Shown here: piece by piece, positions 1,939-2,271 of the stretch
How positions within the stretch are numbered: position 1 is the stretch's first letter
How the letters are laid out: each line of letters starts with the position of its first letter
Source: a virus
Taxonomy: Duplodnaviria > Heunggongvirae > Uroviricota > Caudoviricetes
Virus record (IMG/VR): IMGVR_UViG_2713896783_000029
Strand: one strand, 5' to 3'
DNA: 7,735 nt
The notes under the pieces: model-generated
The model's database searches: none
The model's input: the letters and a program-made list of their open reading frames with translations, nothing else
What the model was told of the DNA's origin: nothing
Program-made: the position numbers and the translations under genes

Positions 1939-2271
1939 ATGAAAATGAAAAGAAATCTTCCGTTAATTATTTTGTTGTCTTCTCTGGTTATGGGCTGTAC
2001 GCAACATAAAACAGATATGCCCCGACAGTTGGTTAAGGCATTACCACAATATCCGGCCTATGCAGCGGCAAATTATATAAAGGGACGGGTTGATGTGAAG
2101 TTTGATATTGGTGCTGATGGTACTGTCACCCGAATTGAGTTTATCCGTTCAGAGCCGCACCATCTGTTTGATGAGCAGGTTGTAAAGGCGATGGCAAAAT
2201 GGCGATTTGAGAAGGACAGGCCGCGTAAAGGCGTGAAGAAAACGTTTATCTTTAGTCCTTCTGCACCCTGA
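1939..2271 (+). CDS. Lipoprotein consisting of a TonB C-terminal-like domain (moron)
   Basis: Signal peptide MKMKRNLPLIILLSSLVMG followed by Cys (lipobox-like LVMG-C). The mature part (LPQYPAYAAANYIKGRVDVKFDIGADGTVTRIEFIRSEPHHLFDEQVVKAMAKWRFEKDRP...FIF) aligns motif for motif with the E. coli TonB C-terminal domain as I recall it ([59 protein letters not shown]...ILF). Start could be ATG 1939 or 1945; the ORF track's GTG 1930 is less likely. Confidence 0.75.
   Translation: MKMKRNLPLIILLSSLVMGCTQHKTDMPRQLVKALPQYPAYAAANYIKGRVDVKFDIGADGTVTRIEFIRSEPHHLFDEQVVKAMAKWRFEKDRPRKGVKKTFIFSPSAP

What the first reader, a model, noticed from the sequence alone, without database searches (positions are those of the whole stretch)
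1939..2271. Phage lipoprotein made of a TonB C-terminal domain: candidate periplasmic TonB decoy / superinfection-exclusion moron
The ORF has a lipoprotein signal peptide followed almost entirely by a domain that aligns motif for motif with the C-terminal domain of TonB (YPA...G.V.VKFD...DG.V......P...F...V..AM..WR.E). It sits in the moron slot after Rz, where lambdoid phages usually carry bor-like genes, with a possible own promoter (about 1882-1912) and a convergent neighbour. Established knowledge: the TonB C-terminal domain contacts the TonB box of outer-membrane transporters (FhuA, BtuB, FepA and others), and periplasmic TonB C-terminal fragments are dominant-negative for TonB-dependent transport. 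Inference: this protein could block TonB-dependent phages (T1, phi80-like) or colicins, analogous in outcome to the FhuA-inactivating lipoproteins Cor and Llp. I do not recognise it as a characterised protein.
Basis: partly seen in the sequence, partly recalled or inferred. Interest (0 to 1): 0.8.

Follow-up and report, generated by a model that had tools for sequence, protein, structure and literature searches.

The report
Prophage lipoprotein made of TonB's tip
A prophage gene found in roughly 30% of complete E. coli genomes encodes a small outer-membrane lipoprotein that is a free-standing copy of the receptor-docking domain of TonB; its relatives are switched on by iron starvation, its function has never been tested, and it may block phages and colicins that hijack TonB-dependent receptors.

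Summary
The ORF at 1945-2271 (the 1939 ATG is not conserved) encodes a 108-aa lipoprotein. Residues 26-108 align without gaps to E. coli TonB 153-235 (Pfam TonB_C E=5.5e-15). A high-confidence model overlays TonB from the BtuB and FhuA complexes at about 1 Å.

It is not a tonB fragment. It belongs to a distinct Enterobacterales family of about 110-aa lipoproteins with an invariant lipobox Cys, no Asp at +2 and a short tether. dN/dS is 0.12 between the two E. coli alleles.

The family sits after the lysis cassette in E. coli, Salmonella, Klebsiella, Rahnella and Sodalis prophages. It also occurs as a stand-alone chromosomal gene in Raoultella, Pantoea and Erwinia.

New here: most lineages carry a near-perfect Fur box over a conserved extended -10 promoter. 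The window allele keeps the promoter but has only a degenerate Fur-like palindrome.

RefSeq already calls it "TonB family protein", and PHROGs mislabels it "Rz-like spanin". I found no functional study.

The decoy/exclusion idea is plausible and now better framed, but it is untested. A positive role in iron uptake is a serious rival. Interest is about 0.6.

The parts
1945..2271 (+). CDS of the 108-aa TonB_C lipoprotein, stop codon included. An alternative in-frame ATG lies at 1939.
   Evidence: The gene is 100% identical in many STEC chromosomes.
1945..1998 (+). Lipoprotein signal peptide (aa 1-17) and the lipidated Cys18. The lipobox VMGC spans 1987-1998, and residue +2 is Thr.
   Evidence: lipobox pattern; family +2 residues S17/A6/T4/V1. 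The Cys is invariant in alignments A3 and A5.
2020..2256 (+). TonB C-terminal domain, aa 26-104, equivalent to E. coli TonB 153-231. The YP motif is Y36-P37. The predicted last strand, aa 94-103, corresponds to the strand that pairs with TonB boxes in TonB.
   Evidence: The beta-augmentation mechanism is from PMC6699858.
1904..1912 (+). Extended -10 promoter element TGtTAGAAT. It is conserved as TGnTAG(A/T)AT in phage 21, Salmonella prophage, Raoultella and Klebsiella copies.
1908..1928 (.). Perfect 8-1-8 palindrome AGAATAAGaCTTATTCT (1908-1924), overlapping a degenerate Fur-like 19-mer (1910-1928). The 19-mer matches 13 of 19 positions. It occupies the position where relatives carry strong Fur boxes.
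   Evidence: The palindrome is intact in 74 of 80 IMG/VR copies. The 7-1-7 score is only 9 of 14.
1935..1939 (+). Shine-Dalgarno-like GGGAA, 5 nt before ATG1945. Relatives have GGA(T/A)G at the same place.
1245..1606 (+). Upstream neighbour: Rz (i-spanin) with embedded Rz1. In this window it is broken by two scaffold gaps. It is intact in the identical complete locus L001.
2403..2675 (-). Convergent downstream neighbour: a YlcI/YnfO (DUF3950) gene. In the window it is interrupted by a spurious 50-N gap with duplicated flanks.

Best explanation
The gene is an accessory (moron-type) prophage gene. It encodes a free-standing TonB C-terminal domain that is lipid-anchored to the periplasmic face of the outer membrane by a very short tether.

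It has no transmembrane anchor and no Pro-rich spacer, so it cannot be energised by ExbB/ExbD. The most likely mechanism is non-productive occupancy of TonB boxes:
- Its exposed last beta-strand captures TonB boxes by beta-augmentation.
- The targets would be ligand-loaded TonB-dependent transporters and/or incoming TonB-box-bearing invaders such as group B colicins.
- This competes with the real, limiting TonB.
- The result would be damped TonB-dependent entry of phages (T1/phi80-like) and bacteriocins into the lysogen.

In most lineages expression comes from the gene's own Fur-repressed promoter. That is exactly when TonB-dependent receptors are derepressed. In lambdoid prophages it would also be read through in the late transcript.

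Shown:
- Domain identity and fold.
- Lipoprotein signal with an outer-membrane-type +2 residue.
- Short conserved tether.
- Purifying selection.
- Conserved promoter and Fur boxes in relatives.
- Distribution across prophages and chromosomes.

Inferred:
- Outer-membrane localisation.
- TonB-box binding.
- The inhibitory outcome and its beneficiaries.
For: Domain and fold:
- The fold and sequence are those of the TonB CTD, at 1.0-1.1 Å from TonB as seen in the BtuB and FhuA complexes.
- The alignment is gapless. Y163, P164, F180, G186, F202, W213 and F230 are identical in the window protein, and Y215 is conservatively replaced by Phe (TonB numbering from memory).
- TonB-box capture is mainly backbone hydrogen bonding on the last strand, so it should survive side-chain divergence (PMC6699858).

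Localisation and geometry:
- The lipobox Cys is invariant, and no family member has Asp at +2.
- The distance from Cys to the YP motif is held at 17-26 residues in 29 members.
- In the FhuA and BtuB complexes TonB lies close to the barrel, nearly parallel to the membrane.

Selection:
- dN/dS is 0.12 between the alleles, with dS about 1.5.

Precedent:
- Overproduced periplasmic TonB domain inhibits FecA/FhuA transport (Howard 2001, cited).
- Llp and Cor show that phages use small inner-leaflet outer-membrane lipoproteins against the periplasmic face of FhuA.

Regulation:
- Fur boxes scoring 12-14 of 14, or 15-17 of 19, lie at -24 to -36 from the start codon in eight lineages, including Salmonella and Sodalis prophages.
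- The null rate for a score of 15 or more out of 19 is 0.003 per 80-nt window.

Distribution:
- The same post-lysis slot is used in at least six prophage lineages.
- The window allele is present in 414 of 5426 complete E. coli genomes, and the phage-21 allele in 1225 of 5426.
Against: - There is no binding or phenotype data of any kind. A co-fold with a TonB box could not be run here.
- Stand-alone chromosomal orthologues are under Fur control in Pantoea, Raoultella and Erwinia. It is odd for a host to induce an inhibitor of iron uptake exactly when it is starving for iron.
- TonB-dependent receptors vastly outnumber TonB under iron limitation, so a decoy would need high copy number.
- TonB positions implicated in receptor contact are changed: Q160 to L, R158 to K, and R166 to Y. 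The Tyr is nearly invariant in the family.
- The window allele's Fur site is weak (13 of 19; 9 of 14, not significant), and phage 21 has none.
- PADLOC has no matching defence model.
Confidence: 0.4

Rival explanations
1. It is a positive or modulatory accessory factor of TonB-dependent iron acquisition. In this reading, a Fur-induced outer-membrane lipoprotein helps transport. It might pre-engage or hold exposed TonB boxes, recruit or hand over TonB, or organise receptors. Phages would carry it as a fitness cargo for iron-limited niches, much as phage 21 carries sitABCD.
For: - Strong Fur boxes occur in chromosomal, non-prophage copies in Raoultella, Klebsiella, Erwinia and Pantoea.
- The family is old and separate from TonB, and chromosomal and phage copies are interleaved in the tree.
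- The protein is under purifying selection.
- Phage 21 combines this gene with the Fe/Mn importer sitABCD.
Against: - There is no known precedent for an unenergised TonB CTD stimulating transport.
- The documented effect of free periplasmic TonB domain is inhibition.
- The sitABCD linkage is not general: it is absent from a UPEC prophage carrying the same allele.
- The gene is not linked to any receptor or exbBD gene in the loci examined.
Confidence: 0.25
2. It is an envelope-structural or surface-protection lipoprotein in the manner of Bor/Iss. The TonB_C fold would be co-opted to bind peptidoglycan or an abundant outer-membrane protein, giving the lysogen serum or stress resistance unrelated to TonB boxes.
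For: - It occupies the same accessory slot as bor, and phage 21 has bor immediately upstream.
- It is a small outer-membrane-type lipoprotein.
- Reports that the TonB CTD associates with peptidoglycan, OmpA and Lpp exist. These are recalled from memory and were not checked here.
Against: - Fur-box control points to iron and TonB biology rather than general envelope protection.
- The TonB_C core and the last strand are conserved.
- There is no sequence or fold relation to Bor.
Confidence: 0.15
3. It is a lysis-cassette component, either an o-spanin or a spanin accessory, as the PHROG label "Rz-like spanin" implies. It would be made only from the late transcript.
For: - PHROG 1267 scores E=1.9e-42.
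- The gene lies just downstream of Rz on the late strand.
- No terminator is predicted between Rz and the gene.
Against: - A canonical Pro-rich Rz1 is embedded in Rz in the identical locus and in phage 21.
- Orthologues occur in non-prophage chromosomal sites, and next to a cI-like repressor in other phages.
- The gene has its own Fur-regulated promoter in relatives.
- The fold is a TonB CTD, not a spanin.
Confidence: 0.04
4. It is a decaying remnant of a captured host tonB gene ("partial tonB", as in the EDL933 annotation) with no function.
For: The historic annotation wording seen in phage ev017 and EDL933-derived names.
Against: - dN/dS is 0.10-0.12 across saturated synonymous divergence.
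- The protein has acquired a lipoprotein signal whose Cys is invariant.
- It is only 39% identical to the E. coli TonB CTD, and the family forms a separate clade.
- The phage-21 allele is at least 99% conserved in 1203 genomes.
Confidence: 0.02

Closest known systems
TonB (E. coli P02929) C-terminal domain, as in PDB 1u07, 2gsk and 2grx
   Same: - It belongs to the same Pfam domain and has the same fold, at 1.0-1.1 Å.
- The alignment to residues 153-235 is gapless.
- The YP motif and the conserved aromatic core are present.
- It has a last strand equivalent to the one that pairs with TonB boxes.
   Different: - It has no N-terminal transmembrane helix and no Pro-rich spacer, so it has no link to ExbBD or the proton-motive force.
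- It carries a lipoprotein signal, so it is anchored to the opposite membrane.
- It is only 39% identical to the E. coli TonB CTD and falls in a separate clade.
- Q160, R158 and R166 are replaced.
- It scores far below the NCBIfam TonB equivalog cut-offs (73 bits against 315).
Periplasmic TonB fragments expressed in vivo (Howard et al. 2001, J Bacteriol 183:5885)
   Same: [quoted passage not shown]
   Different: - The published case is an artificial, soluble, overproduced fragment of the host protein.
- The present case is a natural, lipid-anchored, diverged and separately regulated gene.
Llp (T5) and Cor (phi80, N15, HK022, mEp167) superinfection-exclusion lipoproteins
   Same: - They are small phage-encoded lipoproteins of the outer-membrane inner leaflet.
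- They act on the periplasmic face of a TonB-dependent transporter.
- TonB and Llp compete for the same FhuA surface (bioRxiv 10.64898/2026.03.26.714494).
   Different: - They have an unrelated fold and sequence.
- Llp and Cor are FhuA-specific allosteric inhibitors, whereas a TonB mimic would in principle address every TonB box.
- No exclusion phenotype has been shown for this protein.
Bor/Iss lipoproteins of lambdoid phages
   Same: Both are small lipoprotein accessory genes in the same genomic slot, and both are candidates for lysogenic conversion.
   Different: - There is no homology.
- bor lies on the opposite strand.
- Bor is linked to serum resistance rather than to iron or TonB.
Specialised TonB paralogues and TonB_C modules (FusB, HasB, Myxococcus GltG/GltJ)
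   Same: In these systems too, a TonB_C domain is re-used to grip TonB-box-like motifs in a dedicated partner.
   Different: They all keep an inner-membrane, motor-coupled architecture. This protein does not.

Membership tests
TonB_C domain (Pfam PF03544 / TIGR01352) | The HMM score exceeds the curated cut-off. | tested here: met
   PF03544 scores 56 bits against a cut-off of 24.6. TIGR01352 scores 56.5 bits against 27.1.
TonB_C domain (Pfam PF03544 / TIGR01352) | The alpha/beta fold overlays solved TonB C-terminal domains. | tested here: met
   The model has pLDDT 86. It overlays 2gsk_B at 1.1 Å with TMt 0.94, and 2grx_C at 1.0 Å.
TonB energy transducer (bona fide TonB) | An N-terminal transmembrane anchor that couples the protein to ExbB/ExbD. 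| tested here: not met
   The N-terminus is a cleavable lipoprotein signal, and the mature protein starts at Cys18.
TonB energy transducer (bona fide TonB) | A Pro-rich spacer that spans the periplasm. | tested here: not met
   The mature protein is 91 aa. Only 7 residues (aa 19-25) separate Cys18 from Pro26, the first aligned domain residue.
TonB energy transducer (bona fide TonB) | The score reaches the NCBIfam TonB equivalog cut-off. | tested here: not met
   The best score is 73 bits against cut-offs of 265-448.
Bacterial outer-membrane lipoprotein | A lipobox with an invariant Cys, and a residue other than Asp at +2. | tested here: met
   The lipobox is VMGC followed by T. The pattern is met in 28 of 29 family members, and +2 is S, A, T or V. 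Actual lipidation and sorting are not testable here.
Cor/Llp superinfection-exclusion lipoproteins | Homology or a shared fold with Llp or Cor. | tested here: not met
   Neither Pfam nor PHROGs gives a Cor or Llp hit. The fold is a TonB CTD.
Cor/Llp superinfection-exclusion lipoproteins | It blocks infection by phages that use a TonB-dependent receptor. | not testable with these tools
   This needs plating assays.
Rz1 / o-spanin (PHROG 1267 label) | It is the outer-membrane partner of Rz, and the lysis cassette contains no other o-spanin. | tested here: not met
   A canonical Rz1 of 61 aa, Pro-rich and lipoboxed, is embedded in Rz. It is also annotated in phage 21. Family members also occur outside prophages.
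Fur regulon | A Fur box overlaps the promoter. | tested here: inconclusive
   - Family level: 12-14 of 14 (7-1-7 motif) or 15-17 of 19 in eight lineages.
- Window allele: only 13 of 19 (P about 0.014) and 9 of 14 (not significant).
- Phage-21 allele: no Fur box.
Moron (autonomous accessory cassette in a prophage) | Its own promoter and its own terminator. | tested here: inconclusive
   A conserved extended -10 lies at 1904-1912. No intrinsic terminator is predicted on either side.

The most novel reading that the evidence does not exclude
The family is a previously unrecognised, iron-starvation-induced "anti-TonB" shield. In this reading, outer-membrane-tethered TonB mimics cap TonB boxes generically. 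That would give receptor-independent (pan-TBDT) protection against TonB-parasitising phages, colicins and microcins. Such shields would be traded between enterobacterial chromosomes and temperate phages, and would be carried by roughly 30% of sequenced complete E. coli genomes.
Probability: 0.3. Interest if true: 0.8.

Novelty: new variant of a known kind. Interest (0 to 1): 0.6.

Why it matters
If the decoy reading holds, it would be the first natural protein inhibitor built by mimicking TonB itself. It would also be a new logic of superinfection and bacteriocin exclusion, acting on the shared TonB box rather than on one receptor.

Practical consequences:
- It would affect phage therapy, colicin and microcin use, and siderophore-antibiotic (Trojan-horse) susceptibility in STEC, ExPEC, Salmonella and Klebsiella lysogens.
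- It would provide a ready-made template for TonB-box-targeting inhibitors.

If instead the protein assists iron uptake, it would be a new component of a very well-studied transport system.

Either way, three points follow:
- The gene is very common.
- It is experimentally easy to test.
- PHROG-based pipelines currently mislabel it as a spanin.

Tried and rejected
- Spanin identity (PHROG 1267 label): rejected, because Rz1 is present inside Rz and non-phage orthologues exist.
- tonB pseudogene or fragment: rejected by dN/dS, the lipobox and the tree.
- Defence-system databases: PADLOC gave no hit.
- First structure model: the 13-sequence alignment gave a poor model (pLDDT 60.7). It was replaced by a 29-sequence alignment.
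- BFVD viral fold library: no significant TonB_C-like viral structure.
- Generic promoter and terminator scan: it called no + strand promoter or terminator near the gene. The promoter argument therefore rests on cross-family conservation.
- Fur control of the window allele itself: the 19-mer match is marginal and the 7-1-7 score is at background, so I do not claim it.
- Linkage to sitABCD: present in phage 21 but absent in a UPEC prophage with the same allele.
- The search for related loci with the broad alignment failed because no conserved stretch was found. The first viral scan returned only near-identical copies.
- Howard et al. 2001 (PMC99666) could not be opened. It is cited second-hand.
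- Literature: ten searches found no study of this protein.
- Co-folding with a TonB box or receptor was not possible with the tools allowed.

Full report
**What is at the coordinates.** The + strand ORF ending at 2271 can start at 1930 (GTG), 1939 (ATG) or 1945 (ATG).
- RefSeq uses 1945, giving 108 aa (WP_000828070.1).
- The ATG at 1939 reads ATA in 15 of 80 near-identical IMG/VR copies, so 1945 is the likely start.
- The N-terminus is a textbook lipoprotein signal: MKRN, a hydrophobic core, then VMG-C18. Thr follows at +2.
- Residues 36-103 match Pfam TonB_C at E=5.5e-15, with 56 bits against a cut-off of 24.6. TIGR01352 matches at 2.6e-15.
- Against solved structures the best hits are all TonB C-terminal domains (8rd6, 1u07, 1xx3, 2gsk, 2grx), at E about 3e-16.
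- The alignment is gapless. Window residue n corresponds to E. coli TonB residue n+127, so Pro26 is P153 and Phe103 is F230 (TonB numbering from my own knowledge).
- The YP motif (Y36-P37) and the aromatic or glycine positions F180, G186, F202, W213 and F230 are identical. Y215 is replaced by Phe.
- Q160, R158 and R166 are replaced by L, K and Y.
- A first AlphaFold model from a shallow alignment was poor (pLDDT 60.7). With 29 family members it reached pLDDT 86.2, and 95-98 across residues 30-100.
- That model overlays TonB from the BtuB complex at 1.1 Å (TMt 0.94) and TonB from the FhuA complex at 1.0 Å.

**Context.** The window is a lambdoid prophage segment. It carries Ant (KilAC), a 43-aa membrane peptide, Rz/Rz1, this gene, a convergent ylcI/ynfO gene, HNH, TerS, TerL and a protease-capsid fusion.
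- The 801 bases around the gene are 100% identical in many STEC chromosomes, which include O157:H7, O111 and O145 strains.
- The window comes from a scaffolded draft. Three runs of exactly 50 N replace 4 nt, replace 193 nt of Rz/Rz1, and create a false 22-nt duplication in ylcI.
- In the complete identical locus L001, Rz is intact and contains a canonical embedded Rz1.
- PHROG 1267, to which the protein belongs at E=1.9e-42, is labelled "Rz-like spanin". That label is positional and wrong.

**It is a family, not a fragment.**
- A second E. coli allele (71% identical over the full protein, 76% over the domain) is the "TonB C-terminal domain protein" of phage 21. There it lies after bor and before cos.
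- The window allele occurs in 414 of 5426 complete E. coli genomes. The phage-21 allele occurs in 1225 of 5426, and 1203 of those copies are at least 99% identical.
- Between the two alleles dN/dS is 0.12 (0.10 in the domain), with dS about 1.5. This indicates strong purifying selection.
- Exhaustive and profile searches recover about 110-aa relatives at 34-52% identity, all named only "TonB family protein". They come from Salmonella, Klebsiella, Raoultella, Rahnella, Sodalis, Pantoea, Erwinia and Gibbsiella.
- In a 29-member alignment the lipobox Cys is invariant. Residue +2 is S, A, T or V and never Asp. The distance from Cys to the YP motif is held at 17-26 residues, with a median of 21.
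- In a neighbour-joining tree the lipoproteins form a clade apart from true enterobacterial TonB C-terminal domains. The window protein is 39% identical to the E. coli TonB CTD. Prophage and chromosomal copies are interleaved.

**Where the family sits.** The slot after holin, endolysin and Rz and before terminase is used in several prophage lineages:
- E. coli, both alleles.
- A Klebsiella phage and many IMG/VR contigs.
- Sodalis.
- Rahnella.
- IMG/VR prophage contigs carrying the Salmonella-type protein.

Two IMG/VR phages instead carry it next to a cI-like repressor. Other copies are ordinary chromosomal genes with no phage neighbours:
- Beside lacZ-lacI in Raoultella and Klebsiella sp. R390.
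- In Erwinia.
- In Pantoea agglomerans.
- In a genome deposited as Salmonella (AP025685).

**Regulation, the main new finding.** Just upstream of the start codon most lineages carry a Fur box that overlaps a conserved extended -10 (TGnTAG(A/T)AT or TATAAT). A GGA-type Shine-Dalgarno sequence follows.

Scores against the 19-bp consensus GATAATGATAATCATTATC (unless stated):

| Locus | Match |
|---|---|
| Sodalis prophage | 17/19 |
| Erwinia L014, Pantoea, Klebsiella R390 | 16/19 |
| Raoultella | 15/19 |
| Salmonella-type prophages | 15-16/19 |
| Raoultella L009 | 14/19 |
| Klebsiella-phage-type IMG/VR copies | 13-14/19 |
| Klebsiella phage ST13-OXA48phi12.4 (L002) | 12/19 |

- Scores of 15 or more occur in 0.3% of 80-nt control windows, and those controls include the true sites.
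- Against the 7-1-7 motif TGATAATnATTATCA, eight lineages score 12-14 of 14 at positions -29 to -31. Perfect matches occur in the Salmonella-type prophage copies, in Klebsiella R390 and in one Raoultella copy. The control frequency for 12 or more is 0.3%.
- The window allele keeps the extended -10 (TGtTAGAAT, 1904-1912). At the Fur position it has only AATAAGACTTATTCTTATC. That scores 13 of 19 (P about 0.014) and 9 of 14 (background).
- That sequence is part of a perfect 8-1-8 palindrome at 1908-1924, which is intact in 74 of 80 copies.
- Phage 21 has lost the right half of the site.
- Fur control is therefore well supported for the family and unproven for this allele.
- No terminator separates the gene from Rz, so it should also be read in the late transcript.

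**Mechanism.** The protein has the docking domain of TonB but not the transmembrane helix or the Pro-rich rod. It therefore cannot transmit energy.
- TonB grips transporters mainly through backbone hydrogen bonds between its last strand and the TonB box (PMC6699858).
- In the FhuA and BtuB complexes TonB lies close to the barrel, almost parallel to the membrane (PMC6699858).
- Overproduced periplasmic TonB domain is reported to inhibit iron import through E. coli TonB-dependent transporters; the cited paper's title names FecA and FhuA (Howard et al. 2001, cited in PMC9841981).
- T5 Llp and the prophage Cor proteins show that phages do deploy small inner-leaflet lipoproteins against the periplasmic face of FhuA, on a surface partly shared with TonB (bioRxiv 10.64898/2026.03.26.714494).
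- My best explanation (0.4) is non-productive TonB-box occupancy. This would damp TonB-dependent entry of phages and group B colicins. In most lineages it would be induced when iron limitation derepresses the receptors.

**Rivals.**
- The chief rival (0.25) is a positive or modulatory role in iron uptake. It is favoured by Fur-controlled chromosomal copies in free-living genera.
- A Bor-like envelope role (0.15) is possible.
- A lysis role (0.04) and a pseudogene (0.02) are essentially excluded.

**Novelty.**
- The TonB homology is already in public annotation.
- No dedicated NCBIfam model exists and there is no PADLOC model.
- BFVD contains no comparable viral structure.
- Ten full-text searches found no paper on the protein.
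- New in this analysis are four points. The family is delineated. Phage-chromosome exchange is shown. The tether length is constrained. The promoter is Fur-regulated in most lineages.
- I rate it a new variant of a known kind (phage lipoproteins acting under TonB-dependent receptors), with interest of about 0.6. The hypothesis is cheap to test and the gene is very widespread.

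Noticed in passing
window 1258-1307, 1521-1570, 2529-2578: Three runs of exactly 50 N are scaffold gaps from a draft assembly. The first replaces 4 nt. The second replaces 193 nt of Rz/Rz1. The third is spurious: its flanks duplicate 22 nt and artificially lengthen the ylcI/ynfO ORF.
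   Followed up: yes
window 1908-1924: A perfect 8-1-8 palindrome, AGAATAAGaCTTATTCT, overlaps the -10 of the lipoprotein gene. It is intact in 74 of 80 IMG/VR copies. It is a poor Fur box, so it may be an operator for an unidentified regulator.
   Followed up: partly
window 2072-2099, - strand: A near-consensus sigma-70 promoter (TTCACA-16-TATAAT, 11 of 12) lies inside the lipoprotein gene and points leftwards, towards Rz and towards bor in phage 21. The TATAAT lies in the conserved ANYIK codons. It could be a chance match or an antisense promoter.
   Followed up: no
phage 21, OL657228.1 21967-25416 (L004 13968-17417): Phage 21 carries the Fe/Mn ABC importer sitABCD as cargo alongside the TonB_C lipoprotein. 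The linkage is absent in a UPEC prophage with the same allele.
   Followed up: partly
window 312-1007 and 1102-1233: An antirepressor (Ant, KilAC domain) gene and a 43-aa hydrophobic peptide (PHROG 4906) are inserted between the lysozyme and Rz of the lysis cassette.
   Followed up: no
window 1748-1843 (L001 6049-6144); phage 21 L003 4846-4983: A small upstream ORF shares only its N-terminus (MVEETG-C-T) between the window and phage 21's annotated CPT_21_72. The coding status is doubtful.
   Followed up: no
PHROG 1267 (database annotation): The PHROG that holds this family is labelled "Rz-like spanin", so PHROG-based annotators will mislabel TonB_C lipoproteins as spanins.
   Followed up: yes
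window 2579-7735 compared with L001 6808-11964: To the right of the third gap the window differs from the otherwise identical STEC locus at 97 positions. To the left of the gap there are none. This suggests a recombination boundary near ylcI/HNH.
   Followed up: no
window 5656-7593: A single 645-aa ORF fuses a prohead protease (Peptidase_S78) to the major capsid protein (Phage_capsid).
   Followed up: no
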